Below, in pieces: positions 1 through 55,571 of a stretch of 55,571 nt of DNA (position 1 is the stretch's first letter; every line of letters begins with the position of its first letter). The position numbers and the translations under genes are program-made. The notes beneath the pieces were generated by a model. That model was not told the origin of the DNA and made no database searches. It was given only the letters and a program-made list of their open reading frames with translations. The DNA is from Escherichia phage vB_EcoM_JL1, in the sequence record OR791690.1. One strand, given 5' to 3'.

Positions 1-324
1 GACTTCTTCTCTTCTTTCGAATTCTGATTGAAAGAAAGAAGCATGTCCAAAAGTTCCAATATTACAAAGTTATCTCCCGGCTTGTGGGTGGGCCTTTATA
101 ATAGGAGATGGAGCAATATTGTTGCAATTGAACATGCTTTAGTTGAAGAACAGTTTCGAATGGTAATCCTACTTCACACATGGTTGTTGGAACTTTGTCC
201 GGCCAAAGACAGGGAGTTCAATGATTGCCACATCATTACAACACTGTATGTTTAGTTGACATGCTGAAATGTTTCTAGAATGATTTCAACATGACATGCG
301 GAATACTTCTCCGTATTCTGTTAC

Positions 325-344
325 TTCACATCCAACTAATGTTA
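325..344 (-). promoter_or_regulatory. Phage-promoter-like conserved motif (copy P1)
   Basis: plus ttcacatccaactaatgtta; minus-strand consensus AACATTAGTTGGATTTGAAG shared by about 12 sites. Confidence 0.4.
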
Positions 345-416
345 CAGGTGGCTACAATATTGAAGCCAGCTCTAAGATTAATTGAAACAAGAAAAGGGAG
401 CCGAAGCTCCCAAATA

Positions 417-617
417 TCAGAACGGTATCTCTGTATCGAAATAACCAGAATTGTGCAAATATGCATGCAGTAATACATGCGACTCTTGTTTATATTCTGC
501 TAACAACTCTAAGAAGTCTTTAGTCTCCTCCACTGTAGGACGAGATAAGTTGCTCATGTCACAGGTGTGATGAGGGTTGAAACAGTTTTCGATTTGATTG
601 ATTTGCATGGTATTCAT
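417..617 (-). CDS. Small hypothetical protein (66 aa) ending in SSB-tip-like DTEIPF
   Basis: minus-strand ORF downstream of RNAP gene; C-terminus ...GYFDTEIPF resembles the E. coli SSB tip DDDIPF. Confidence 0.5.
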   Translation of the reverse strand: MNTMQINQIENCFNPHHTCDMSNLSRPTVEETKDFLELLAEYKQESHVLLHAYLHNSGYFDTEIPF

Positions 618-665
618 TATAAGTCTCCAAGTTTGTGGTCATCCTTGACCAATTAGTGTTACTGA

Positions 666-2780
666 TTATTGACAGAAGTAGTAAGCGTGTTCGCTCATCA
701 GAAGCTCTTCAGTTACGATGTTCTCATGATACATCTTGATGCCACCAAGTTGCTTAGACAGATTCTCGAATTGATTGTTGGTTACAAAGATTTCAACATA
801 TGCTGCACGAATAACTTCCATCATACGTGGAGCATCTGCCAAACAGCAACGGAAACAATCATGGATTGAAGTGAAGCCACGAAGACCAGCTTCTTTAGCT
901 TTAACTGCAACAGTACGAGCAACAAGTGCATCAATGCCCTGAATGTAGTTAACAACGAAAGTACGCTTGAATTCTTCTTTAGTTGGATTGGATTCACGAA
1001 TGGTCCAAGGCTTATTCTCCTGAATCTGACCAAAGATAACACGAGTTTGGGAGTCAACACGAATGCTGAATGCCTCACAGATTTCACGAGATGGGAAGCA
1101 AGGCTTCATTACAACCTGACCATCAGTGTGACGATATGTGATGTACTCTTTACCAAGTTCAACACAACGGTTGTATGCAGCATCAGCAGCTTTCTCAATG
1201 AACATGTTAATCTTAGCACCCAATGCGTTATGGATTGCTTCCACACACAGTTCAGCAAATGCCTCAGCTTTCTCCATAGGAATCTGGAGTGCTTCTGTCA
1301 TGTAGCTGATGAAGTCAGAAGAACCAGTCAATGCAGCTTTACCACCACCGTATTGGATAGCCATGTACGGAGTTTTGATAAACTTACGACCAGCTTTCGG
1401 ATTCAAGAATTCATCCATGATTTCAGGAGATGGTTTCATTGAAGACTTGTCCAGCAGCTTCAACAGTTCACGAAGACTCAACTGGTATGGGTCAGATGCT
1501 TTAGTCTCAGAATCAACCAGACCTGTTGCACGAGCCATTTCCATATTACCAGCAATGAATGCCAGATATTGAGTACCAGAACATTTAGCATCTAAGCCAA
1601 AGCCTACACGAGAATCACATTCACCTGTAGTCTCGAACTTGAACCAATCCAGAGCCAGACGAACATAAGTGAATGGCTTGGAAGGACGTTCAGCTTTAGG
1701 CATGTTCATCATGCGAGCAAGTGAACCAGCTGGATTCTGAGCAACATAAGTTAAACGCTTAGCACTGCACCATTCACCACCAGAAATATCTTCCAGCTCT
1801 GCCATAAACATGTTGTATGCAATGGTAGTAGAACCATCTTCGTTAAACTTCTTAACGATGTTCTCAACATTGTGAGAATACAAGCAACGAGCAAAGTCAG
1901 ATGATTGTGGGTTAGGACCAGCACATGCTACATGATACAGACGACCACGGTTATCAGCAAAGTAGTCAGAATACAGTGTGTCCTGATTCATCATTGCTAC
2001 AGCATTGTTCCAAACATGGAGTTCAGTCTGGATTGCTTCTGGCATCTGCAAGCCACCATAGGTACGTTGTTCAAGCATGGACTGAATGATGCGAACCATC
2101 TCAGTCTCCACATGGTACTCAGTATCTTGCAGGAATTCGATTGCAGCTTTCAGAGTTTTGGATGGCTTAACTTTGCCACCTTTAACGAAAGGCTTGCGAC
2201 GAGATTCAGATGTAACACGCTCAGTGAATGGCACTGCGGTATCTTTGGTTGTAACCAGCTCAACCCATGTGTCAGTTTGTTGGAACGACTTATCTTCGTT
2301 CATGGTGATGAAGCCAAAGTGCTTAGCCAGGCCAATGAGGTTGATAGCTGGGTCAACATAGTGCATTGCTTTCAAATCATTGTTGTAACGGTTGGCATCA
2401 GCAATTGAAGCAGAAGCCAGCTCAACCATTGCAATTGCAGGAACAACATCATCACGAGTGAATGAGGTCATCATCTTAAAGATTGCAAGAGCAGCAATAG
2501 CACAGGTCTGAGGTTGCATGTAGTTCTGTTTCTCTTTGGCACGATATACCAGAGCAGTGATAGCAGGGACAACGGATTTGATAGTTTGAGTTGAGATAGT
2601 TGCCATTTTGCGAGTCTCCAATTTAGTTTCGGTTTTAGTTTCGGATTGTGTAGCGGAGGTGATTTCATCTACCATCTGGTTGCAACGGTCCATCGTATCG
2701 AGCACGTCTTTCCAACCGTGGCCTTCTTCTTTTAAGCGAGCACCATCAGCAGCCAGTGTACGATATTCTTCATTAGTCAT
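666..2780 (-). CDS. T7-like single-subunit DNA-dependent RNA polymerase (704 aa, compact)
   Basis: motifs DAKCSGTQYLAF (T7 DGSCSGIQHFSA), KTPYMAIQYGGG, SIHDCF (T7 HDSFGT); ATG at 2780 with GGAGA RBS. Confidence 0.85.
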   Translation of the reverse strand: MTNEEYRTLAADGARLKEEGHGWKDVLDTMDRCNQMVDEITSATQSETKTETKLETRKMATISTQTIKSVVPAITALVYRAKEKQNYMQPQTCAIAALAIFKMMTSFTRDDVVPAIAMVELASASIADANRYNNDLKAMHYVDPAINLIGLAKHFGFITMNEDKSFQQTDTWVELVTTKDTAVPFTERVTSESRRKPFVKGGKVKPSKTLKAAIEFLQDTEYHVETEMVRIIQSMLEQRTYGGLQMPEAIQTELHVWNNAVAMMNQDTLYSDYFADNRGRLYHVACAGPNPQSSDFARCLYSHNVENIVKKFNEDGSTTIAYNMFMAELEDISGGEWCSAKRLTYVAQNPAGSLARMMNMPKAERPSKPFTYVRLALDWFKFETTGECDSRVGFGLDAKCSGTQYLAFIAGNMEMARATGLVDSETKASDPYQLSLRELLKLLDKSSMKPSPEIMDEFLNPKAGRKFIKTPYMAIQYGGGKAALTGSSDFISYMTEALQIPMEKAEAFAELCVEAIHNALGAKINMFIEKAADAAYNRCVELGKEYITYRHTDGQVVMKPCFPSREICEAFSIRVDSQTRVIFGQIQENKPWTIRESNPTKEEFKRTFVVNYIQGIDALVARTVAVKAKEAGLRGFTSIHDCFRCCLADAPRMMEVIRAAYVEIFVTNNQFENLSKQLGGIKMYHENIVTEELLMSEHAYYFCQ

Positions 2781-2842
2781 GATAAAGTCTCCAATTGATT
2801 ATGATTTAACTGAAACGGATTAGACTTGCGTAGCCTATTCAT

Positions 2843-2862
2843 AATCACAACCAACTAATGGT
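2843..2862 (-). promoter_or_regulatory. Phage-promoter-like conserved motif (copy P2), 63 nt upstream of RNAP start
   Basis: plus aatcacaaccaactaatggt. Confidence 0.4.
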
Positions 2863-2995
2863 GAGGTGAGCACACTACAACAGCGTACTCTGATTGCCTT
2901 TGACCTTGACTTATAAGCGAAGCGCCTAACTTGGTGTTGTTTGAAAGCCGATAGGCTGTAGGAAAAAGTTGGAGTAGGGACCGTATTTAAGTCCG

Positions 2996-3424
2996 ATAGG
3001 ACGTTGGGCTTCTGCTCCCCGGCCCCCTAAAAATAAAATTAATATTGCCACAATTCGAGTCTCGTTAATATCGAACAAATTCGAGTCTCCAATATCGTAA
3101 CAATTTTAGTCTCATTAATTCTGTAGCAATATTGAAAATAAAAAAAAAATTATAAAAAAATTATTTCATAGCCAGACAACTGTTCGAACAAATTTCGGCG
3201 AGATAACTTCTCCGAAGGAGATACAGCTGACCGACCATGAACGAATTACTATCCAGGTACAGTTGACCGACCATGTACCATTTGGTTTTGAACTTTACGC
3301 ATTCCTAATATTACTCTTAATATTGTAGCAATATTGGGAATAAATAAATATTTAATTTACTTGTCTTATTCTAGCTCAAAGAGAAACGACGCTAACGCAT
3401 CGAATCTCTTCTCGCATATAATCG
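2996..3424 (-). promoter_or_regulatory. AT-rich non-coding control region between nrdB and RNAP gene, with direct repeats
   Basis: no ORF; three ~25-bp direct repeats (GAGACTCGAATTTGTTCGATATT-like, minus strand), two copies of CATGGTCGGTCARCTGTAYCT, long A/T tract 3131..3170, repeated CAATATTGCTACA. Confidence 0.6.
3149..3179 (-). promoter_or_regulatory. Candidate sigma70-type promoter upstream of RNAP gene
   Basis: minus strand TTGTCT then about 18-19 nt then TATAAT; spacer slightly long. Confidence 0.3.
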
Positions 3425-38855: not shown

Positions 38856-38911
38856 TTGCTCTCCGGTTCATATGGTGGGAGATTAATTAGCTCCGCACCA
38901 TGATAATGGTA

Positions 38912-39142
38912 TTATTTTAATGACGCCTGAATTTCTTTCATCGACGCATTTAGTACAGAACGCTTTTCATATTCGCGTTGATTGTACGTGCTTGTCAGTG
39001 CTTCCGCAGCTTCTATTGACAAGATTGCAAAACCACCAAAGGCATTGCGAACTTCTTCAATATCCATGTGCAGGACTTCACTTGTAATTTGGCTTGCTAT
39101 TACGGCCTTATAAATCTCTTCGGCAATTTCAGCAGTTTTCAT
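38912..39142 (-). CDS. Hypothetical protein
   Basis: 76 aa minus-strand ORF. Confidence 0.4.
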   Translation of the reverse strand: MKTAEIAEEIYKAVIASQITSEVLHMDIEEVRNAFGGFAILSIEAAEALTSTYNQREYEKRSVLNASMKEIQASLK

Positions 39143-39644
39143 GTTTCTCTCCAGTTAAAATTTAAGTAAGTGTCCTGACGTGAACTGTTACAAAACACTT
39201 ATTAAATTTGATTCGAACCGCCCAAGTGAATCAGCCTTGTTTATGGGGACCATCGGGGAAAAGTATAAACCCGCTTAATGCTCGCATCATGTTTGAACAT
39301 TAAGAACCCTCGACTTGCATATTTCATGTGTATAGGAACATAGTCTGGATTTTGAATCCAGCTAACTTCGGGATGAGGAGTAACCCAAACGAAAGCCTGA
39401 ACTTTCTTTCTGCACAACACAATCAGCGCAACTAAGCCGTATCGCTACGGTATGCCAGACGCTCGCATGAGCCTTTTGAACAGAGGCATAACTGTTGGAG
39501 GTAAAGTGGCGGATTCGGCGAACGTTAGTTCACAATTACACAGTCGGCCTCGGATGCTTCATCCCTATCCCATCGTGCAGGTTTCATTAACTCTACGAAT
39601 CCATTGAATTTGGTGGCCGATACGTTGGCCAGACGCTGTGATAT

Positions 39645-39845
39645 TTAACAAGGGTCGCTGTCAGGTTCTGTCAACTTCTTGCGAAGGAATGCATCCCCTG
39701 CGTTATACAGAAATGCGAAGTAAAGTTGCTTTGCCTTATGTCGGCTACAACCCAAGGCTACCTGAATTTCTTGATACTGATATGTACGCACCTCATTATT
39801 AATGATTGCGTTGCGAATGATTGCACGAATGCTGATTTTGTCCAT
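39645..39845 (-). CDS. Hypothetical protein
   Basis: 66 aa minus-strand ORF. Confidence 0.35.
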   Translation of the reverse strand: MDKISIRAIIRNAIINNEVRTYQYQEIQVALGCSRHKAKQLYFAFLYNAGDAFLRKKLTEPDSDPC

Positions 39846-40228
39846 AGAAGACTACCTTATACAGTTGAGGTTGCGGCCTTTACGCGGCCAACGTGCCATT
39901 AATGCTGGCAAGACAGAGCTAACGTTCTCAAGCACTTTTGTCTAGGTCTGTTCCCGGCCACTGTTCTAGGAAGTGACTACCTGAACTTTCTCGCGTTCAA
40001 TGCGAGGCAGCAATTTTAATTGTTATGCCCAGAGCAACTTGCAGGTTTGTTTGAGTTGGAGTCCTGCTTCCAAACGCATGGGCTTACACCATCATCGCAA
40101 CAAGTTGCTAGAGTCTCGTTATTTAAAGTCGCGCACTCCCTCGACTTTTGGGTAGTTATAGACGTCCGTCTTGGCTGTCGTCACCTTGGTCAGTCTTTTA
40201 CACCACCAACTAGCTAGGCCATGTTCAC

Positions 40229-40438
40229 TCACTGTCGGGTAAGTTTCGAACACTTTTGTGCCCACGTTTCATTGTGGACTAAAATCTGTGTTTTGGTTTC
40301 GCGTGATAAGATTTTCACTTCTGCAACATCCAAATAGATTGGTTGTGCAATTAAGCAGTAATCACTTACGAACCCACTTTGAGAGCAACTCACTATCGAC
40401 ATTGCTATCAGAACTGCTAGACACTTCTTTCTGAACAT
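40229..40438 (-). CDS. Lipoprotein, o-spanin-like, partly embedded in upstream gene
   Basis: MFRKKCLAVLIAMSIVSC lipobox; starts inside 40362..40598 in another frame; no clear RBS. Confidence 0.3.
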   Translation of the reverse strand: MFRKKCLAVLIAMSIVSCSQSGFVSDYCLIAQPIYLDVAEVKILSRETKTQILVHNETWAQKCSKLTRQ

Positions 40439-40598
40439 GCGTTTTAATCTCGATAGATTCTTTAATGGAGTCGAATTGCTTCTCTTTGGCTTCCTGACGC
40501 TCCTCGGCTTTGCCTGAGCTTTTGCCTTTGAGGAACACTGCAATAAGAATACCAAATGCAGTCAGGACGCCAAGAACTATTGATTTAAGCTGTTGCAT
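40362..40598 (-). CDS. Membrane protein, i-spanin-like
   Basis: N-terminal TM helix, charged periplasmic-type remainder; AGGTGA RBS. Confidence 0.4.
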   Translation of the reverse strand: MQQLKSIVLGVLTAFGILIAVFLKGKSSGKAEERQEAKEKQFDSIKESIEIKTHVQKEVSSSSDSNVDSELLSKWVRK

Positions 40599-40779
40599 AA
40601 ATCACCTTAGATGGCGCACGCACCACTTGAGCAGTCGTTATCGCCCTCACCAGGAACGATTGCTTCTTCGTCCTGCTTCTTCTTAAGTTCTTCAATTGCT
40701 TCTTCGGCAGCACCGAAGTCTAAATTATCAAGTGCATCAAAATCCATAAGGACTCCAGTATTGCGGTTATTAAAGTGGG

Positions 40780-40872
40780 TGGACGAGGTTGGATTCGAAC
40801 CAACGACACATCTGCCTAACAGATTGCTCTACCTGACTAAGCTCTGGAGCAGACCTTCTGAGCTACTCGTCC
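40780..40872 (-). tRNA. tRNA gene with ~20-nt insertion; anticodon probably UAG (Leu) by manual fold
   Basis: acceptor stem GGACGAG/CTCGTCC, T-arm GTTGG-TTCGAAT-CCAAC, D-arm GCTT-AGTCAGGTA-GAGC, anticodon loop GUUAGGC; extra TAGCTCAGAAGGTCTGCTCCAGA between acceptor strand and D-arm. Confidence 0.6.
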
Positions 40873-41860
40873 AAAGAATAAGAGGGTTTTGATAACGCAG
40901 GTTTTCCCGAACTGCGAGGCTTGTAGAATCCGTGAGCCGCCTACTGTGTTTTGACATAACGTGGGATTGATGGTCCCGACTCACTTCATCTCAGGTACGA
41001 GGCACTACTTTGCGAGTGCAAGCAGGTGTTGAACCCAAGTACCAACAGGCAACCTGATTTAATCTACCTTTGTAGATACCATCGGTTATGAGCAGTTTAT
41101 TTCCATACTCAGGGCAACTCACTTTAGGGTGAATTTAGGTTACGCAGTGCAGCTTCGAAGTCGCTGCCACAGGCTTGAGATTCCTGTGTGGAGGGAAATC
41201 CAGAGGAGCACTTCCCCAAGGAGTTACGTTTCATATTGGCATAGCTTCTCACACTAAGCCAATTGAAGACATTCCAGTGTGCTCGTCCGTCCTCTAGAAA
41301 TATCCAACTGCATAATTAAGTTTGTACTCTGTCACATCCCCACGCGCACTGAGGGACTTAAGCCTGCATTGCATCGCAGAATACAAATTAATTATTGCTC
41401 CGATTTATTAATCACATCTCGAAGCCACAATGCGCCAAATTTGGTTACGTGGGATTGGAAGACCACGGAGAGGACTTAAATTTAATTAAGCCGCAACTCG
41501 CATTTCAGAATCATTTGCATTTATTTTAAATGAATAAAACAGTCGCAATAACTCCAGGCAGTTTAGGCCCGTCGTAAGACTCAGAAAACTACTTCAATTT
41601 GTACACAACAAATTTCCCAACATTGCCTTCCGTCGAAGGCTCATGCACTGGTGTTTGAATTATGCACAAATTGAAATAACTTCAATGAACACTCTTGTCT
41701 GGGCCATGAGATTGGGCATCGGCCTACCTCCCAACTCTAATCACAAGAATGCTCATTGAAGCCCACTCTTCCTTTCAGAATGGGTTCAAGGCAGCACCGG
41801 AAATATTCCAGTGCATGCCAGATCGATTTAGCTTAGTCTCTCAAGTTTGCCATCGGCAAC

Positions 41861-42199
41861 TTAGAATACCGGAGCTTCTTCAACAGCAGCTTCGGCAGCT
41901 TCGGCAACACTTGCGTCAGCAACTTTAGCTTCTTTCGGAGTATCGAACTTAGTACGCTCAACTTCCGGCTCACCAGCTTCAACCCACGGCAGGTAGAATG
42001 CCAGGAACTGCTCGATGGTGTTCTTCTGCATGGAGCGAGAACGGTCGATAGCGCCAACGGTGTTCAGGTACGCTTCGGCAGCTTTCTCAATTTTAGCACC
42101 GTTTTCCAGTTTGAAGTCATGTGCATTACACTCTGCTTCGGTCAGGAACAGGGAACCATCGTTAGCTTCGTACTGAGTTACGGTTACAATCTTAGCCAT
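41861..42199 (-). CDS. Hypothetical protein
   Basis: 112 aa; downstream of promoter-like motif P5. Confidence 0.5.
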   Translation of the reverse strand: MAKIVTVTQYEANDGSLFLTEAECNAHDFKLENGAKIEKAAEAYLNTVGAIDRSRSMQKNTIEQFLAFYLPWVEAGEPEVERTKFDTPKEAKVADASVAEAAEAAVEEAPVF

Positions 42200-42272
42200 T
42201 TGTATATACCTTATATTGAATAGTTTTGCACGCCACGGTGACGCGACTTAGATAAAATTAAAGAGCCTTTCT

Positions 42273-42295
42273 CTTTCCACATCCAACTAATGTTT
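42273..42295 (-). promoter_or_regulatory. Phage-promoter-like conserved motif (copy P5)
   Basis: plus ctttccacatccaactaatgttt. Confidence 0.4.
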
Positions 42296-42322
42296 CAGAA
42301 CTGCTCTGATTCGACAAACGAC

Positions 42323-51492: not shown

Positions 51493-51677
51493 TTGGCCCC
51501 CAGAATTTGGCTTAATGAACTGAACACGATTTCCTCATGTTCGTCAGGTGTACATGCATTGATGTATTCAAAGTCGTAACCAACAAACTTCTCCGCCCAC
51601 TGTTGCAAACGAAGTAAAGAATTGAAGTACAATCTTTGCTCCACACCATTTAACTTAAAGTAGACGATGAAGTCCAT
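51489..51677 (-). CDS. Hypothetical protein
   Basis: 62 aa. Confidence 0.4.
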   Translation of the reverse strand: MDFIVYFKLNGVEQRLYFNSLLRLQQWAEKFVGYDFEYINACTPDEHEEIVFSSLSQILGAK

Positions 51678-51692
51678 GTTTACTCCTATGTA

Positions 51693-51911
51693 TTAAACTT
51701 CAATTGGCTCTTGAACTAAATCAGAGGCTGAGATTTCTTTAAACTCCTCCTCGGTAAAAGTTCTCTCATTGTCATTTAATAAAACACCAATGTTAGAATC
51801 ACCAACGAATACAGCATTTACATTAATGTCATCTTCCAAAACTTTTTGCAGGTGTTCTCCACCACGCGTAAAGAAGATTGCACCATCTTCCAAATCTTTA
51901 AAACGAGTCAT
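51693..51911 (-). CDS. Hypothetical protein, first gene after the control region
   Basis: AGGAG RBS; preceded by hairpin. Confidence 0.45.
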   Translation of the reverse strand: MTRFKDLEDGAIFFTRGGEHLQKVLEDDINVNAVFVGDSNIGVLLNDNERTFTEEEFKEISASDLVQEPIEV

Positions 51912-51932
51912 TTTATTCTCCTAAGTTAAAAG

Positions 51933-51960
51933 AAATAGCCCACAAGATTGCAGGCTATTT
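51933..51960 (-). promoter_or_regulatory. 5' leader hairpin (terminator-like) just upstream of first early gene RBS
   Basis: minus AATAGCC-N12-GGCTATT followed by TCTTTT then AGGAG and ATG. Confidence 0.3.
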
Positions 51961-52052
51961 GTGACACAGCAAGTGCCGAAGAACTACAATGATTAGCTTG
52001 GAGACATAATCTCTCTAAAATCTGTCACAGAATTTACAGAGATTTGGTCTTA

Positions 52053-52070
52053 TTCACATGCAACTAATCG
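52053..52070 (-). promoter_or_regulatory. Degenerate copy of phage-promoter-like motif (P12)
   Basis: plus ttcacatgcaactaatcg. Confidence 0.25.
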
Positions 52071-52259
52071 AAATAATGACGCGCCAATCTAATACAATAT
52101 TACCCCGCCAAATGAGATAAATTGCAGCAGATTGGCACGAACATTTGTAGCACTGGAGTTCTGTAGAAGCAGCCAACTTGTTTGTATTTGGCACAAACAG
52201 TTGAATACCTATGTACAGAAAACCGACCATTTAATTAATAAACTAAATGATTTAAATAA

Positions 52260-52520
52260 AGGGTTTTATCCCAATATTGTCACAATATTACATGCGATGA
52301 TAAAGCCTTCGCTTGGCTGGAAGCCAGTATTCATGCGGGTTGCAAGAATATTGGGTTAAATACTACATGCGAATTTGGCACAAATACTGTTACAAAATTA
52401 ACATGCCAGATTGGTAGACGATTGTATCTTCGAGGTGATTAGTCCTCTAACAATTCTGCCACATTCCAACATGCCAATTTGTAGCAATATTTACATGCCA
52501 TACTGCGACAATATTGTCAC
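52260..52520 (-). repeat. Cluster of short repeats in the control region
   Basis: at least five minus-strand copies of YGGCATGTWAATATTG-like motif and two AATATTGTCACAATATT near-palindromes; no ORF. Confidence 0.5.
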
Positions 52521-52992
52521 AATATTTGTTGCTCAAAATCGGGGCGGCAAACGATATTAAATTCGATGCTTTGTCCGACTTCTTCTCTTCTTTCGAATTC
52601 TGATTGAAAGAAAGAAGCATGTCCAAAAGTTCCAATATTACAAAGTTATCTCCCGGCTTGTGGGTGGGCCTTTATAATAGGAGATGGAGCAATATTGTTG
52701 CAATTGAACATGCTTTAGTTGAAGAACAGTTTCGAATGGTAATCCTACTTCACACATGGTTGTTGGAACTTTGTCCGGCCAAAGACAGGGAGTTCAATGA
52801 TTGCCACATCATTACAACACTGTATGTTTAGTTGACATGCTGAAATGTTTCTAGAATGATTTCAACATGACATGCGGAATACTTCTCCGTATTCTGTTAC
52901 TTCACATCCAACTAATGTTACAGGTGGCTACAATATTGAAGCCAGCTCTAAGATTAATTGAAACAAGAAAAGGGAGCCGAAGCTCCCAAATA

Positions 52993-53193
52993 TCAGAACG
53001 GTATCTCTGTATCGAAATAACCAGAATTGTGCAAATATGCATGCAGTAATACATGCGACTCTTGTTTATATTCTGCTAACAACTCTAAGAAGTCTTTAGT
53101 CTCCTCCACTGTAGGACGAGATAAGTTGCTCATGTCACAGGTGTGATGAGGGTTGAAACAGTTTTCGATTTGATTGATTTGCATGGTATTCAT
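52993..53193 (-). CDS. Copy of 417..617 (small protein ending DTEIPF)
   Basis: sequence identity with 417..617. Confidence 0.5.
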   Translation of the reverse strand: MNTMQINQIENCFNPHHTCDMSNLSRPTVEETKDFLELLAEYKQESHVLLHAYLHNSGYFDTEIPF

Positions 53194-53241
53194 TATAAGT
53201 CTCCAAGTTTGTGGTCATCCTTGACCAATTAGTGTTACTGA

Positions 53242-55356
53242 TTATTGACAGAAGTAGTAAGCGTGTTCGCTCATCAGAAGCTCTTCAGTTACGATGTTCT
53301 CATGATACATCTTGATGCCACCAAGTTGCTTAGACAGATTCTCGAATTGATTGTTGGTTACAAAGATTTCAACATATGCTGCACGAATAACTTCCATCAT
53401 ACGTGGAGCATCTGCCAAACAGCAACGGAAACAATCATGGATTGAAGTGAAGCCACGAAGACCAGCTTCTTTAGCTTTAACTGCAACAGTACGAGCAACA
53501 AGTGCATCAATGCCCTGAATGTAGTTAACAACGAAAGTACGCTTGAATTCTTCTTTAGTTGGATTGGATTCACGAATGGTCCAAGGCTTATTCTCCTGAA
53601 TCTGACCAAAGATAACACGAGTTTGGGAGTCAACACGAATGCTGAATGCCTCACAGATTTCACGAGATGGGAAGCAAGGCTTCATTACAACCTGACCATC
53701 AGTGTGACGATATGTGATGTACTCTTTACCAAGTTCAACACAACGGTTGTATGCAGCATCAGCAGCTTTCTCAATGAACATGTTAATCTTAGCACCCAAT
53801 GCGTTATGGATTGCTTCCACACACAGTTCAGCAAATGCCTCAGCTTTCTCCATAGGAATCTGGAGTGCTTCTGTCATGTAGCTGATGAAGTCAGAAGAAC
53901 CAGTCAATGCAGCTTTACCACCACCGTATTGGATAGCCATGTACGGAGTTTTGATAAACTTACGACCAGCTTTCGGATTCAAGAATTCATCCATGATTTC
54001 AGGAGATGGTTTCATTGAAGACTTGTCCAGCAGCTTCAACAGTTCACGAAGACTCAACTGGTATGGGTCAGATGCTTTAGTCTCAGAATCAACCAGACCT
54101 GTTGCACGAGCCATTTCCATATTACCAGCAATGAATGCCAGATATTGAGTACCAGAACATTTAGCATCTAAGCCAAAGCCTACACGAGAATCACATTCAC
54201 CTGTAGTCTCGAACTTGAACCAATCCAGAGCCAGACGAACATAAGTGAATGGCTTGGAAGGACGTTCAGCTTTAGGCATGTTCATCATGCGAGCAAGTGA
54301 ACCAGCTGGATTCTGAGCAACATAAGTTAAACGCTTAGCACTGCACCATTCACCACCAGAAATATCTTCCAGCTCTGCCATAAACATGTTGTATGCAATG
54401 GTAGTAGAACCATCTTCGTTAAACTTCTTAACGATGTTCTCAACATTGTGAGAATACAAGCAACGAGCAAAGTCAGATGATTGTGGGTTAGGACCAGCAC
54501 ATGCTACATGATACAGACGACCACGGTTATCAGCAAAGTAGTCAGAATACAGTGTGTCCTGATTCATCATTGCTACAGCATTGTTCCAAACATGGAGTTC
54601 AGTCTGGATTGCTTCTGGCATCTGCAAGCCACCATAGGTACGTTGTTCAAGCATGGACTGAATGATGCGAACCATCTCAGTCTCCACATGGTACTCAGTA
54701 TCTTGCAGGAATTCGATTGCAGCTTTCAGAGTTTTGGATGGCTTAACTTTGCCACCTTTAACGAAAGGCTTGCGACGAGATTCAGATGTAACACGCTCAG
54801 TGAATGGCACTGCGGTATCTTTGGTTGTAACCAGCTCAACCCATGTGTCAGTTTGTTGGAACGACTTATCTTCGTTCATGGTGATGAAGCCAAAGTGCTT
54901 AGCCAGGCCAATGAGGTTGATAGCTGGGTCAACATAGTGCATTGCTTTCAAATCATTGTTGTAACGGTTGGCATCAGCAATTGAAGCAGAAGCCAGCTCA
55001 ACCATTGCAATTGCAGGAACAACATCATCACGAGTGAATGAGGTCATCATCTTAAAGATTGCAAGAGCAGCAATAGCACAGGTCTGAGGTTGCATGTAGT
55101 TCTGTTTCTCTTTGGCACGATATACCAGAGCAGTGATAGCAGGGACAACGGATTTGATAGTTTGAGTTGAGATAGTTGCCATTTTGCGAGTCTCCAATTT
55201 AGTTTCGGTTTTAGTTTCGGATTGTGTAGCGGAGGTGATTTCATCTACCATCTGGTTGCAACGGTCCATCGTATCGAGCACGTCTTTCCAACCGTGGCCT
55301 TCTTCTTTTAAGCGAGCACCATCAGCAGCCAGTGTACGATATTCTTCATTAGTCAT
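53242..55356 (-). CDS. Copy of T7-like single-subunit RNA polymerase gene
   Basis: identical to 666..2780. Confidence 0.85.
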   Translation of the reverse strand: MTNEEYRTLAADGARLKEEGHGWKDVLDTMDRCNQMVDEITSATQSETKTETKLETRKMATISTQTIKSVVPAITALVYRAKEKQNYMQPQTCAIAALAIFKMMTSFTRDDVVPAIAMVELASASIADANRYNNDLKAMHYVDPAINLIGLAKHFGFITMNEDKSFQQTDTWVELVTTKDTAVPFTERVTSESRRKPFVKGGKVKPSKTLKAAIEFLQDTEYHVETEMVRIIQSMLEQRTYGGLQMPEAIQTELHVWNNAVAMMNQDTLYSDYFADNRGRLYHVACAGPNPQSSDFARCLYSHNVENIVKKFNEDGSTTIAYNMFMAELEDISGGEWCSAKRLTYVAQNPAGSLARMMNMPKAERPSKPFTYVRLALDWFKFETTGECDSRVGFGLDAKCSGTQYLAFIAGNMEMARATGLVDSETKASDPYQLSLRELLKLLDKSSMKPSPEIMDEFLNPKAGRKFIKTPYMAIQYGGGKAALTGSSDFISYMTEALQIPMEKAEAFAELCVEAIHNALGAKINMFIEKAADAAYNRCVELGKEYITYRHTDGQVVMKPCFPSREICEAFSIRVDSQTRVIFGQIQENKPWTIRESNPTKEEFKRTFVVNYIQGIDALVARTVAVKAKEAGLRGFTSIHDCFRCCLADAPRMMEVIRAAYVEIFVTNNQFENLSKQLGGIKMYHENIVTEELLMSEHAYYFCQ

Positions 55357-55571
55357 GATAAAGTCTCCAATTGATTATGATTTAACTGAAACGGATTAGA
55401 CTTGCGTAGCCTATTCATAATCACAACCAACTAATGGTGAGGTGAGCACACTACAACAGCGTACTCTGATTGCCTTTGACCTTGACTTATAAGCGAAGCG
55501 CCTAACTTGGTGTTGTTTGAAAGCCGATAGGCTGTAGGAAAAAGTTGGAGTAGGGACCGTATTTAAGTCCG

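What the first reader, a model, noticed from the sequence alone, without database searches (positions are those of the whole stretch)
51912..52576. Control region with repeated YGGCATGTWAATATTG motifs and AATATTGTCACAATATT palindromes upstream of the first early gene
At least five minus-strand copies of the GCATGT-ATATTG motif (another at ~41835) and two near-palindromes, all in an ORF-free stretch that continues into 1..416. Spacing does not fit sigma54, and I found no strong sigma70 consensus on the gene strand, so these may be operators or unusual early promoters. A terminator-like hairpin sits just before the first RBS (51933..51960).
Basis: seen in the sequence. Interest (0 to 1): 0.45.

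Follow-up and report, generated by a model that had tools for sequence, protein, structure and literature searches.

The report
Conserved repeat array at phage terminal-repeat junction
The repeated motifs are real: they belong to a deeply conserved, gene-free stretch that straddles the inner end of this phage's long terminal repeat, and they look like protein-docking sites for replication, packaging or control, not ordinary promoters; their function has not been tested.

Summary
The window is a phiEcoM-GJ1-like coliphage (Chaseviridae, Carltongylesvirus) with an exact 2,995-bp direct terminal repeat (DTR: 1..2995 = 52577..55571). All genes are on the minus strand.

The finding lies in a 1.08-kb ORF-free gap (52992..51912). 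The gap separates the T7-like RNA polymerase gene, which lies inside the DTR, from the small early genes. The DTR's inner end (52577|52576) falls inside the gap.

The real unit is an invariant, co-oriented hexamer GCATGT followed by a loose AT-rich dyad, AATATTG-N3-CAATATT.
- 10 of the 19 gene-strand GCATGT copies in the unique genome lie within 1 kb.
- In 13 phages of six or more genera the gap holds 144 GCATGT and 9 ACATGC.
- Three copies are invariant in all 13 phages.
- The other subfamily uses GTATGA or GTGTGA in the same place.
- The dyad occurs only in the two non-coding regions that flank the DTR.

The units fit none of these: sigma70, sigma54, the annotated GJ1-type phage promoters (two bracket the array), T7-group promoters, any Rfam family or a conserved RNA fold.

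My best reading (about 0.35) is a DNA-level protein-binding array at the DTR junction, serving as origin, packaging or control sites. A second phage-polymerase promoter class is the main rival.

The parts
52577..55571 (.). Right-hand copy of the 2,995-bp direct terminal repeat (identical to 1..2995). On the gene (minus) strand it starts with CGGACTTAAAT and ends with GAAGAAGTC.
   Evidence: Exact identity. Relatives carry PhageTerm or experimentally determined DTRs of 2.6-3.4 kb.
53242..55182 (-). [quoted passage not shown] The ORF is open back to 55356.
   Evidence: Pfam RNA_pol 3e-19. It hits T7 RNAP in the PDB only at E = 0.003. It is 92-99% identical to Carltongylesvirus RNAPs.
52993..53193 (-). 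Small ORF (66 aa, phrog_20790, unknown function). Present in some relatives only. It contains the first GCATGT copy (53056).
52972..52987 (-). Intrinsic-terminator-like hairpin GGGAGCUUCGGCUCCC followed by UUUU.
   Evidence: -12 kcal/mol, z = -4.1. Conserved in the E. coli, Yersinia and 4HA13 phages.
52901..52917 (-). GJ1-type putative phage-RNAP promoter no. 1, CATTAGTTGGATGTGAA (perfect consensus), inside the DTR and 325 nt before its end.
   Evidence: Annotated as a promoter in SA91KD and GJ1. Conserved in most of the 13 phages, not recognisable in Myduc at that position.
52769..52813 (-). Two adjacent hairpins with compensatory changes, for example TGTC/GACA against TGAG/CTCA.
   Evidence: alifold -9.7 against -0.6 for shuffled columns, with many double-sided changes.
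52649..52684 (-). Hairpin with a covarying outer stem. Its loop, CCTATTATAAAGGCCC...CACAAGCCGGGA, is nearly invariant in 13 phages.
52851..52875 (-). GCATGT unit 2, inside the DTR.
   Evidence: GCATGT in 11 of 13 phages.
52817..52840 (-). GCATGT unit 3, inside the DTR. It forms an imperfect inverted pair with unit 2.
   Evidence: 11 of 13.
52690..52713 (-). 24-nt unit 4, GCATGTTCAATTGCAACAATATTG, inside the DTR.
52576..52577 (.). Inner end of the DTR (presumed terminase cut): GAAGAAGTC|GGACAAAGC.
   Evidence: The same alignment column holds the boundary in Myduc, Y2 (2,608 bp) and PM1 (2,665 bp); 4HA13 is +5 and Mangalitsa is -5.
52510..52526 (.). Dyad (element B) copy 1, AATATTGTGACAATATT, about 50 nt outside the DTR end.
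   Evidence: Conserved in the E. coli phages, Faunus and PM1.
52475..52498 (-). 24-nt unit 5, GCATGTAAATATTGCTACAAATTG.
   Evidence: GCATGT invariant in 13 of 13 phages.
52451..52474 (-). 24-nt unit 6, GCATGTTGGAATGTGGCAGAATTG.
   Evidence: 13 of 13.
52383..52406 (-). Unit 7, GCATGTTAATTTTGTAACAGTATT.
   Evidence: 13 of 13.
52347..52370 (-). Unit 8, GCATGTAGTATTTAACCCAATATT.
   Evidence: 12 of 13.
52272..52295 (-). Unit 10, GCATGTAATATTGTGACAATATTG. It contains dyad copy 2 (52289..52273) and is followed by GGGA. TTGTGAC is invariant even where this unit's GCATGT is lost.
52230..52260 (.). AT-rich tract (31 nt, 2 G/C) directly after the last unit.
   Evidence: Read. AT-rich in all genera.
52213..52230 (-). 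Element C, ATGGTCGGTTTTCTGTAC (conserved TGGTCGGT..CTGTAC). It is also present twice in the other DTR-flanking region.
52184..52195 (-). Nearly invariant 12-mer TGTGCCAAATAC.
52053..52069 (-). GJ1-type promoter no. 2, GATTAGTTGCATGTGAA. It contains a GCATGT and lies about 140 nt before the first early gene.
51933..51960 (-). Stem-loop followed by a U-run, just before the first RBS.
   Evidence: Relatives have a longer stem-loop at the same place.
51693..51911 (-). First early gene (72 aa, phrog_2183, unknown function).
2996..3424 (-). Second non-coding region, on the other side of the DTR. It holds dyads at 3335..3319, 3107..3091 and 3055..3040, element C at 3274..3257 and 3238..3221, a T-run, GAGACTCGAATTG units, and the cut CCTAT|CGGAC. 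It holds no GCATGT.

Best explanation
The motifs are parts of a co-oriented array of about ten composite DNA sites. Each site is an oriented hexamer, GCATGT, followed by an AT-rich dyad of the type AATATTG-N3-CAATATT. Where both parts are clear the unit is 24 nt.

The array fills the ~1.1-kb untranslated gap between the phage RNA polymerase gene and the early genes. It straddles the inner end of the 2,995-bp direct terminal repeat.

I think these are DNA-level docking sites for one or two sequence-specific proteins, with a dimer on the dyad. The proteins would be phage-encoded or would co-evolve with the phage lineage. Together they would build a nucleoprotein complex at the DTR/unique junction.

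The complex would govern events specific to the junction:
- starting replication at the AT-rich tract and the TGGTC-containing element that follow the last unit, the layout of the T7 primary origin, which also lies right after the polymerase gene;
- and/or positioning the terminase cut 50-80 nt away.

Transcription of the leader and the early genes would start at the two GJ1-type phage promoters that bracket the array (52917, 52069), not at the repeats.

Shown: existence, clustering, strand bias, orthologous conservation, coincidence with the DTR end, the dyad on both DTR flanks, and failure of every promoter and RNA model tested. Inferred: that proteins bind, which proteins, and what the complex does.
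For: 1. Clustering and polarity. 10 of 19 gene-strand GCATGT copies lie in 1 kb. Across 13 phages the gap holds 144 GCATGT and 9 ACATGC, against about 0.3-0.5 expected per gap and strand.
2. Phylogenetic footprint. Units 52498, 52474 and 52406 are GCATGT in 13 of 13 phages. Hexamer columns are 0.86 identical in other genera, against 0.58 for the rest of the gap. The spacings 24-36 / 67-69 / 34-37 are kept.
3. The whole family has a 1.0-1.4-kb gap after the RNAP gene. The other subfamily uses its own oriented hexamer there: GTATGA x7 in Aeromonas and Vibrio phages, GTGTGA x8-9 in Shewanella phages, and 0 on the other strand. These come with AT-rich palindromes such as ATAATTAT x5 in VPs20.
4. 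The DTR end maps to one alignment column in the window, Myduc, Y2 and PM1, and within +/-5 nt in 4HA13 and Mangalitsa. The record-defined DTR of ZPAH14 also ends inside its own array.
5. The dyad is symmetric and occurs only in the two DTR-flanking non-coding regions: 11 matches against 0.32 expected, none elsewhere. The second region is conserved across genera too.
6. An AT-rich tract and the conserved TGGTCGGT..CTGTAC element follow the array. GC skew on the gene strand goes from about 0 in the RNAP gene to +0.10 right after the gap (weak evidence).
7. The promoter and RNA models fail (see the rivals).
8. In a scan of viral contigs for one composite unit (GCATGT-N4-TTGTGACAAT), only the Chaseviridae-like matches carried an array.
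Against: - No binding protein was identified. No HTH, sigma, RHH or small-terminase family is recognisable among 37 early and middle proteins. The first gene after the gap is not a conserved DNA binder.
- GCATGT occurs on only one side of the DTR and spreads over about 1 kb, which is large for a pac site.
- The units are not helically phased: the cumulative spacings 24, 92, 128 and 203 fall at different phases (my arithmetic).
- A mirrored alignment of the two DTR flanks is not significant.
- There are no DnaA or IHF boxes.
- T7-type replisomes need no iteron-binding initiator (own knowledge).
- The hexamer type tracks host order as well as phage lineage, so a host factor is not excluded.
- Strict co-orientation with transcription is also what promoters or pause sites would show.
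Confidence: 0.35

Rival explanations
1. The units are a second, gap-specific class of recognition sites for the phage's own minimal T7-like RNA polymerase: tandem promoters or sequence-specific pause sites. Polymerases starting or stalling here would drive early transcription, prime replication at the AT-rich tract as at T7 phi1.1A/B, or mark the concatemer junction for terminase as the T7 CJ pause site does.
For: - All units point in the direction of transcription.
- They lie right after the RNAP gene, as the T7 class II promoter and origin cluster does (own knowledge).
- The hexamer changes with the RNAP lineage: about 33% RNAP identity between subfamilies, with GCATGT against GTATGA or GTGTGA.
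- GCATGT overlays G9..T14 of the dispersed promoter CATTAGTTGGATGTGAA. The 52069 promoter literally contains it, and the units score in the 94th-99th percentile for that promoter's 3' half.
- In ZPAH14 the hexamer is preceded by CATA(A/G)GTA, which resembles CATTAG.
- The best-conserved unit is followed by GGGA and then the AT tract.
- The ICTV profile says the family's promoters are not yet identified.
Against: - The 5' half of the dispersed promoter is absent from the units, and full-PWM scores are far below those of true sites: -21 to -2 against +22 to +28.
- Information is concentrated in 6 nt with only 0.3-0.8 bit elsewhere, unlike the 17-20 evenly conserved positions of single-subunit RNAP promoters.
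- Resemblance to T7, T3, SP6 and K11 promoters is at chance level.
- The dyad symmetry of element B is not a promoter property.
- The units are never used in front of genes elsewhere in the genome.
Confidence: 0.25
2. The units are transcriptional operators. A small phage regulator, binding as a dimer to the dyad, would switch the two bracketing phage promoters, and read-through from the RNAP gene, on or off. This would give early shut-off or autoregulation, with no role in replication or packaging.
For: - The dyads are perfect and conserved.
- A unit or dyad sits immediately upstream of promoter no. 1 in every genus, and units lie 14-60 nt upstream of promoter no. 2 in GJ1-like phages.
- A dyad also lies upstream of the DTR and the RNAP gene in the other non-coding region.
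Against: - Ten to fourteen sites spread over 1 kb is far more than two promoters need.
- Most units are hundreds of nt from either promoter.
- The other ten dispersed promoters have no such sites (listing).
- No regulator was recognised.
Confidence: 0.15
3. The units are non-canonical host-RNAP early promoters of the extended -10 type. In this reading the TG of GCATGT sits at -15/-14, the hexamer nAWWTT follows, and the CAA about 7 nt further on is the start. They would form a tandem battery like T7 A1-A3, possibly needing a phage activator as T4 MotA-box promoters do.
For: - In 81 units the two best-conserved flanking positions are A at +8 and T at +12, which would be -11A and -7T.
- An A-rich position lies 7 nt further on.
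- The small early genes lie directly downstream.
- No canonical sigma70 promoter is present on the gene strand.
Against: - T at the would-be -12 is not preferred (18 of 81).
- -35 matches at 16-18 nt are depleted relative to shifted controls.
- The invariance of G, C and A at -18 to -16 is unexplained.
- The hexamer differs between phage subfamilies whose hosts share the sigma70 consensus.
- No AsiA-, MotA- or sigma-like protein was detected.
Confidence: 0.08
4. The array is a DNA-entry stop or hold signal like the T5 iss. The DTR with the RNAP gene would enter first, and the array at its end would bind a host or membrane factor until polymerase has been made.
For: - Like the T5 iss, it is a large untranslated region at the end of a long terminal repeat, full of repeats, inverted repeats and palindromes (Davison, bioRxiv 10.1101/866236).
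- The only sizeable gene in the DTR is the polymerase.
- The hexamer type follows host order.
Against: - There is no DnaA-box enrichment.
- Most invariant units lie just outside the DTR, not inside it.
- Two-step entry has never been reported for this family in the papers I could search.
Confidence: 0.07
5. The motifs act in the leader RNA made from promoter 52917, for example as repeated GCAUGU binding sites for an RNA-binding protein or as processing sites.
For: - The array is transcribed if promoter no. 1 is active.
- Strict strand polarity.
- Covarying hairpins elsewhere in the same leader show that RNA or single-strand structure matters there.
Against: - No conserved structure is specific to the units.
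- The dyad is a weak hairpin: -3.5 kcal/mol, z = -0.6.
- The dyad's sequence, not its pairing, is conserved.
- There are no Rfam matches.
- The dyad recurs in the other DTR flank, in a different transcript context.
Confidence: 0.05

Closest known systems
Phage T7 junction and origin elements: the SRL/SRR heptamer arrays beside the terminal repeat, the phiOL/phiOR promoters and CJ pause site, and the primary origin (phi1.1A/B promoters, an AT-rich tract and a primase site) just downstream of gene 1. From own knowledge: Dunn & Studier 1983; Chung & Hinkle 1990; Fuller & Richardson 1985; Lyakhov et al. 1998; Zhang & Studier 2004.
   Same: - A single-subunit RNAP phage with short co-oriented repeats flanking the terminal repeat in the concatemer.
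- A phage promoter that reads across the repeat end.
- An origin-like layout (sites, AT-rich tract, TGGTC-type words) immediately after the polymerase gene.
   Different: - The DTR is 3 kb and contains the polymerase gene, against 160 bp in T7.
- The units are 24-nt composites with a dyad.
- The polymerase is 646 aa and barely alignable to T7 RNAP.
- The virion is a myovirus.
- None of the T7 functions has been tested here.
Phage T5 injection stop signal region (Davison, bioRxiv 10.1101/866236).
   Same: A conserved, large untranslated region at the inner end of a long terminal repeat, dense in direct repeats, inverted repeats and palindromes.
   Different: - No DnaA boxes.
- The region straddles the repeat end instead of lying inside the repeat.
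- No evidence of two-step entry.
Terminase recognition arrays (P1 pac hexamers, lambda cosB R sites, SPP1 pacL/pacR) and iteron origins (lambda ori: four dyad-containing iterons plus an AT-rich tract). From own knowledge.
   Same: - Several short repeats on both sides of a precise cut.
- Dyad-containing repeats next to an AT-rich tract.
   Different: - The span is about 1 kb.
- The units are not helically phased.
- No small terminase or initiator was recognised.
- The hexamer is on one side of the DTR only.
GJ1-type putative phage promoters, CATTAGTTGGATGTGAA (Jamalludeen et al. 2008, as cited in the GenBank records EF460875 and OL960574).
   Same: Same strand and same phage. Two copies lie in the gap, the 52069 copy contains GCATGT, and there is weak similarity to the promoter's 3' half.
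   Different: These promoters are dispersed at 12 sites in intergenic positions. In the SA91KD record several annotated copies directly follow annotated terminators. The GCATGT units lack the CATTAGTT half and occur only in the gap.
T4 middle promoters (MotA box about 12 bp upstream of a -10 element). From own knowledge.
   Same: A conserved box followed 10-11 nt later by a -10-like CA(A/G)(T/A)AT.
   Different: - No MotA or AsiA homologue was found.
- The -10-like part is a dyad that also occurs without the box.
- The sites are not placed in front of genes.

Membership tests
Sigma70 promoter | TTGACA-like -35 element 16-18 nt upstream of a TATAAT-like -10 element. | tested here: not met
   Only two 9/12 sites on the gene strand of 51600-55571, fewer than in shuffles. 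For the would-be -10 at unit positions 7-12, -35 scores are lower than at shifted controls and T at -12 is not preferred.
Sigma54 promoter | GG and GC elements with a fixed spacing (TGGCAC-N5-TTGC). | tested here: not met
   In TGGCATGTAAATATTGCT the GC lies 2 nt too far away, and only 3 of 10 units start with TGGCATG (read).
GJ1-type (Chaseviridae) phage promoter | Match to CATTAGTTGGATGTGAA over its full length. | tested here: not met
   PWM built from 11-12 true sites: units score -21 to -2, true sites +22 to +28. Only the 3' half is weakly similar, at the 94th-99th percentile. The sites at 52917 and 52069 are true members.
T7-supergroup promoter (T7/T3/SP6/K11) | Similarity to the -17..+3 consensus. 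| tested here: not met
   The best unit (52289) matches K11 at 13 of 20, no better than random sites elsewhere in the genome.
Iteron-type replication origin | Direct repeats in one orientation next to an AT-rich unwinding tract. | tested here: met
   About 6 co-oriented units at 52498..52272 are followed by the 31-nt AT tract 52260..52230.
Iteron-type replication origin | Helical phasing of the repeats, an initiator protein gene, and DnaA or IHF boxes. | tested here: not met
   The spacings 24/68/36/34/41 are not multiples of a helical turn. No initiator was recognised. There is no DnaA or IHF enrichment.
Terminase recognition (pac/cos-type) site | Repeated elements flanking a precise, conserved cut. 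| tested here: met
   The cut column is shared by 4 phages exactly and by 2 within 5 nt. GCATGT units lie on both sides of it, and dyads lie 45-50 nt outside both DTR ends.
Terminase recognition (pac/cos-type) site | Binding by the small terminase, and being required for packaging. | not testable with these tools
   No small terminase is recognisable. Testing this needs transduction or packaging assays.
T5-type injection stop signal | Untranslated repeat- and palindrome-rich region at the end of a long terminal repeat. | tested here: met
   compared with the description in 10.1101/866236.
T5-type injection stop signal | An ordered set of DnaA boxes, and two-step DNA transfer. | tested here: not met
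   There is one DnaA-box match in the gap and no enrichment. Two-step transfer is not testable here.
Known structured RNA (Rfam) | A covariance-model match at or near the gathering score. | tested here: not met
   No gathering-level hit in the window. Only chance-level hits appear at E up to 5 in 51850-53300.

The most novel reading that the evidence does not exclude
The oriented hexamers (GCATGT in Cleopatravirinae, GTATGA or GTGTGA in Nefertitivirinae) are the core recognition element of the family's unusually small T7-like RNA polymerase.

In this reading the gap array is a polymerase loading and pausing platform. It would physically couple transcription to replication priming and to cutting and duplication of the 3-kb terminal repeat. 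That would be an expanded, multi-copy version of the single T7 concatemer-junction pause site, and it would answer what the ICTV profile calls the family's still unidentified promoters.
Probability: 0.2. Interest if true: 0.7.

Novelty: new variant of a known kind. Interest (0 to 1): 0.5.

Why it matters
Chaseviridae are myoviruses that carry a T7-like polymerase. They are being developed against STEC, fire blight and soft rot. The ICTV profile says their promoters are unidentified, and nothing is known about their origin or packaging signals.

This analysis defines, at nucleotide resolution, a family-wide cis-acting region:
- a precise terminal-repeat cut site;
- two bracketing phage promoters;
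- covarying hairpins;
- a two-component repeat system whose sequence switches between subfamilies.

That gives concrete 24-nt probes and deletion targets. With them one can find the binding protein and test how a 3-kb terminal repeat that contains the polymerase gene is replicated, cut and duplicated. If the units turn out to be polymerase sites, they would also give a new orthogonal polymerase and promoter pair from a 646-aa enzyme.

Tried and rejected
- Sigma70 reading: rejected.
- Sigma54 reading: rejected on spacing.
- Units as copies of the GJ1-type promoter: rejected by PWM at offsets -6..+6. At the one meaningful register there is only weak similarity to the 3' half.
- Resemblance of TTGTGACAATATTG(GGA) to the SP6 and K11 promoters looked striking by eye but is at chance level.
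- Host-factor boxes (DnaA, IHF, CRP, matS, Chi): no enrichment.
- Structured RNA: nothing in Rfam. No conserved fold is specific to the units, and the dyad hairpin is weak.
- Mirror-image architecture of the two DTR flanks: not significant in the window, Y2 or PM1. Only the shared presence of dyad copies stands.
- Search for a binder:
  - Pfam and PHROGs on 37 early and middle proteins gave no HTH, sigma or small-terminase family.
  - The first gene after the gap is not a conserved DNA-binding gene. The 'AP2' gene of VPs20 is an HNH_3 endonuclease.
- A dispersed promoter in the Nefertitivirinae phage ZPAH14: not found by k-mer counting, and my ORF-masking script failed on the window control. 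This was left open.
- Literature: no paper in the searchable library describes the array or maps transcripts in this family. The 2008 GJ1 genome paper is not held.
- The '~41835 copy' is a terminator hairpin with GCATGC.
Full report
WHAT THE WINDOW IS. The first 2,995 bases are identical to the last 2,995 (1..2995 = 52577..55571). So the window is a linear phage genome written with both copies of a direct terminal repeat (DTR).

The region of the finding is 84-96% identical to E. coli and Yersinia phages of the family Chaseviridae, genus Carltongylesvirus (phiEcoM-GJ1-like): Bp7, Bp10, flopper, ST32, SA91KD, Mangalitsa and PYps23T. All genes are on the minus strand.

Reading in the gene direction from the end at 55571, the order is:
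- 215 nt of leader;
- a 66-aa ORF;
- a terminator hairpin (52987..52972);
- a 1.08-kb ORF-free gap;
- a run of about 25 small early genes starting at 51911.

The DTR ends inside the gap, at 52577|52576.

CHECK OF THE OBSERVATION. GCATGT occurs ten times on the gene strand between 53056 and 52061, plus a GCATGA at 52337. It occurs once on the other strand of that region.

Over the whole window the hexamer is at chance frequency: 40 matches against 43 +/- 6.6 in shuffles. So composition explains the count but not the distribution. Ten of the 19 gene-strand copies of the unique genome fall in 1.9% of its length. My binomial arithmetic puts this at about 6e-13.

GGCATGTWAATATTG fits two sites with at most 1 mismatch. 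With up to 3 mismatches it is not above chance: 8 against 3.6.

The 17-mer palindrome is exact at 52273-52289 and 52510-52526. Its relatives (up to 3 mismatches) number 11 against 0.32 expected.

The alleged extra copy near 41835 reads GCATGC inside a terminator-type hairpin and is not a member. The hairpin before the first RBS is real. So is the absence of a good sigma70 site on the gene strand.

ANATOMY OF THE UNIT. I aligned 81 distinct GCATGT sites from eight divergent phages. Besides the hexamer, the weakly conserved positions are A(-6), T(-4), Y(-2) upstream and, downstream, n-A-W-W-T-T-G-n3-C-A-A-n2-T-T.

Where both parts are clear the unit is 24 nt. Examples are GCATGTAAATATTGCTACAAATTG, GCATGTAATATTGTGACAATATTG and GCATGTTCAATTGCAACAATATTG.

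The downstream part (element B) is a dyad, AATATTG-N3-CAATATT. It also occurs without a hexamer. Its core TTGTGAC stays invariant even in genera that have lost the adjacent GCATGT.

CONSERVATION. Every Chaseviridae genome I opened has a 1.0-1.4-kb ORF-free gap right after the polymerase gene.

In 13 Cleopatravirinae phages, GCATGT is the first- or second-ranked hexamer of every gap tabulated: 144 copies on the gene strand against 9 on the other. The hosts are E. coli, Yersinia, Erwinia, Pantoea, Pectobacterium and Proteus, and polymerase identity goes down to 66%.

A MAFFT alignment of the 13 gaps shows the copies are orthologous islands in diverged flanks:
- the units at 52498, 52474 and 52406 are GCATGT in 13 of 13 phages, and 52370 in 12 of 13;
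- hexamer columns are 0.86 identical in other genera, against 0.58 for the rest of the gap;
- the spacings 24-36 / 67-69 / 34-37 are kept.

The other subfamily has the same design with different words: GTATGA seven times in Aeromonas and Vibrio phages, and GTGTGA eight to nine times in Shewanella phages, never on the opposite strand. These come with AT-rich palindromes such as ATAATTAT in VPs20. The family-wide hexamer is therefore G-Y-R-T-G-W.

A scan of IMG/VR for one composite unit (GCATGT-N4-TTGTGACAAT) gave 14 matching loci, and only the Chaseviridae-like ones carried an array.

WHAT ELSE IS IN THE GAP. Two copies of the motif CATTAGTTGGATGTGAA bracket the array, at 52917 and 52069. GenBank records of GJ1 and SA91KD annotate this motif as a 'putative phage promoter', citing Jamalludeen et al. 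2008. Ten more copies are dispersed through the genome, all on the gene strand in intergenic positions; in the SA91KD record several directly follow annotated terminators. One lies upstream of the polymerase gene itself.

A review states that the family's polymerase uses such dispersed promoters (PMC8472413). The ICTV profile says the promoters are not yet identified (PMC12842549).

The DTR part of the gap also holds two hairpin elements with compensatory changes:
- 52813..52769;
- 52684..52649, whose loop CCTATTATAAAGGCCC...CACAAGCCGGGA is nearly invariant.

After the last unit come a 31-nt AT-rich tract (52260..52230), a conserved ATGGTCGGT..CTGTAC element (52230..52213) and a nearly invariant TGTGCCAAATAC.

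THE TERMINAL REPEAT CONNECTION. The inner DTR end of this window (GAAGAAGTC|GGACAAAG) falls in the same alignment column as three other DTR ends: the PhageTerm-predicted end of Proteus phage Myduc, and the ends of the duplicated DTRs in the Y2 (2,608 bp) and PM1 (2,665 bp) records. It lies within 5 nt of those of 4HA13 and Mangalitsa.

The invariant core of the array begins about 80 nt beyond that point. In Aeromonas phage ZPAH14 the 3,373-bp DTR also ends in the middle of its own array.

The non-coding region on the other side of the DTR (3424..2996) is conserved across genera as well. It contains the same dyad (3335..3319, 3107..3091, 3055..3040), two more copies of the TGGTCGGTCAnCTGTA(C/T) element, a T-run, and the cut CCTAT|CGGAC. 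It has no GCATGT. Dyad-type matches occur nowhere else in the genome.

A mirror-image alignment of the two flanks is not significant. I therefore claim only the shared elements, not a symmetric architecture.

TESTS OF MECHANISM.
- Host sigma70: no -35 at 16-18 nt. An extended -10 reading (TG of GCATGT, then nAWWTT) fits the two best flanking positions, but T at -12 is not preferred.
- Sigma54: the spacing is wrong.
- Phage promoter of the dispersed type: the full PWM fails. Only when GCATGT is laid over G9..T14 of the promoter do the units reach the 94th-99th percentile for its 3' half. That is a weak, inconclusive link.
- T7-group promoters: chance-level similarity.
- RNA: no Rfam hit, no unit-specific conserved fold, and a weak dyad hairpin.
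- Host boxes (DnaA, IHF, CRP, matS, Chi): no enrichment.
- Candidate binders: none recognisable by Pfam or PHROGs among 37 proteins, and no small terminase was identified.
- GC skew on the gene strand is about 0 in the polymerase gene and +0.10 from the gap onward. This is compatible with an origin in the gap, but it is weak evidence.

INTERPRETATION. These points are shown:
- a real, polar, deeply conserved two-component repeat system;
- confined to the untranslated DNA that flanks the terminal repeat;
- abutting a precisely conserved repeat end;
- bracketed by the known-type phage promoters.

What is inferred is that it works as duplex DNA bound by sequence-specific protein. The grounds are the dyad symmetry, conservation of sequence rather than pairing, and the failure of the promoter and RNA models.

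I commit, at about 0.35, to a junction nucleoprotein array that serves replication initiation and/or terminal-repeat cutting. The closest analogues are the T7 primary origin, which also lies just after the polymerase gene, and the T7 repeat arrays and promoters at the concatemer junction. The T5 injection-stop region and pac/cos/iteron arrays are looser parallels. The T7 and pac/cos/iteron comparisons rest on my own knowledge of those systems; the T5 description comes from 10.1101/866236.

The main rival, at about 0.25, is that the hexamer is a core recognition element of the phage's own small polymerase, so that the array is a set of promoters or pause sites. The polarity, the lineage-specific switch of the hexamer, and its presence inside the 52069 promoter keep this rival alive. 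Because the hexamer type also tracks host order, a host factor cannot be excluded.

NOVELTY AND VERDICT. I found no description of this array in the records or papers I could reach. The 2008 GJ1 paper is not held, so prior mention there cannot be ruled out. In kind it resembles the repeat-rich non-coding regions next to the terminal repeats of T7 and T5. Its composition, its extent and its association with a polymerase-containing 3-kb repeat are new.

It missed the terminal-repeat context and the promoters already annotated there. Its 'operators or unusual promoters' remains a fair but untested pair of options, with the operator-like reading the better supported of the two.

Noticed in passing
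window 40788..40843 (-), within the gene-poor stretch 42300..38900: A tRNA-like remnant. Rfam tRNA scores 27 bits against a gathering score of 29, while ARAGORN calls nothing. The acceptor-like ends GGACGAG...CTCGTCC suggest a decayed or interrupted tRNA gene. Some relatives carry tRNA genes in this region.
   Followed up: partly
window 55183..55356 (-): The polymerase ORF has an in-frame 58-codon N-terminal extension. Many relatives' annotated RNAP genes align only from residue 59-68 of this ORF (near 55182, with GGAG 7 nt upstream; 4HA13 has a separate small gene upstream), while others (Mangalitsa, SKA49, Bp10) cover the full 704 aa. The true start is ambiguous here.
   Followed up: partly
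window 53242..55182 (-) and its copy 666..2606: The polymerase is only 646 aa and matches T7 RNAP in the PDB at just E = 0.003. About 200 residues of the T7 N-terminal promoter-binding region have no counterpart. The gene lies wholly inside the DTR, so each virion DNA carries two copies.
   Followed up: partly
window ~52907 (L015 position 2339 of Yersinia phage PYps23T): The experimentally reported DTR end of PYps23T (2,339 bp, by run-off sequencing) maps inside the GJ1-type promoter, CATTAGTTGGA|TGTGAAG. That is 330 nt before the boundary shared by six other phages. It may reflect a nick or a polymerase stop rather than the true end.
   Followed up: no
window 2993..3000 and 52574..52581: Both DTR boundaries carry the same word, TCGGAC: CCTAT|CGGAC at the start and GAAGTC|GGAC at the end. 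Variants occur in Y2, PM1, Myduc and 4HA13. This is a candidate terminase cut motif.
   Followed up: partly
window 52769..52813 and 52649..52684 (-): Hairpins with compensatory base changes across genera. The second has a nearly invariant loop, CCTATTATAAAGGCCC..CACAAGCCGGGA. They look like RNA or single-strand DNA elements distinct from the repeat array.
   Followed up: partly
window 52213..52230, 3257..3274, 3221..3238 (-): A conserved element, ATGGTCGGT(N4)CTGTA(C/T), occurs in both DTR-flanking regions. It contains 5'-TGGTC-3', a preferred template word of the T7 primase (own knowledge). I did not test whether this phage's primase shares that specificity.
   Followed up: no
window 3040..3160 (-): Tandem ~27-nt units (GATATT-AACGAGACTCGAATTG-TGGC) follow a long T-run just outside the DTR start. 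The GJ1 record annotates one such unit as a putative host sigma70 promoter (TTGACG-N18-TATTAT). If so, it would drive only the right-hand or concatemeric copy of the polymerase gene.
   Followed up: partly
window 55420..55436 (-): The GJ1-type promoter upstream of the polymerase gene is a variant, CATTAGTTGGTTGTGATTATGAA. Its 3' end creates an extended -10-like TGTGATTAT, so it could serve both host and phage polymerases.
   Followed up: no
L036 3202..3522 (Vibrio phage VPs20): The first gene after the gap is annotated 'AP2 domain'. It scores as an HNH_3 endonuclease (8e-16), which suggests a mobile insertion, not a conserved regulator.
   Followed up: yes
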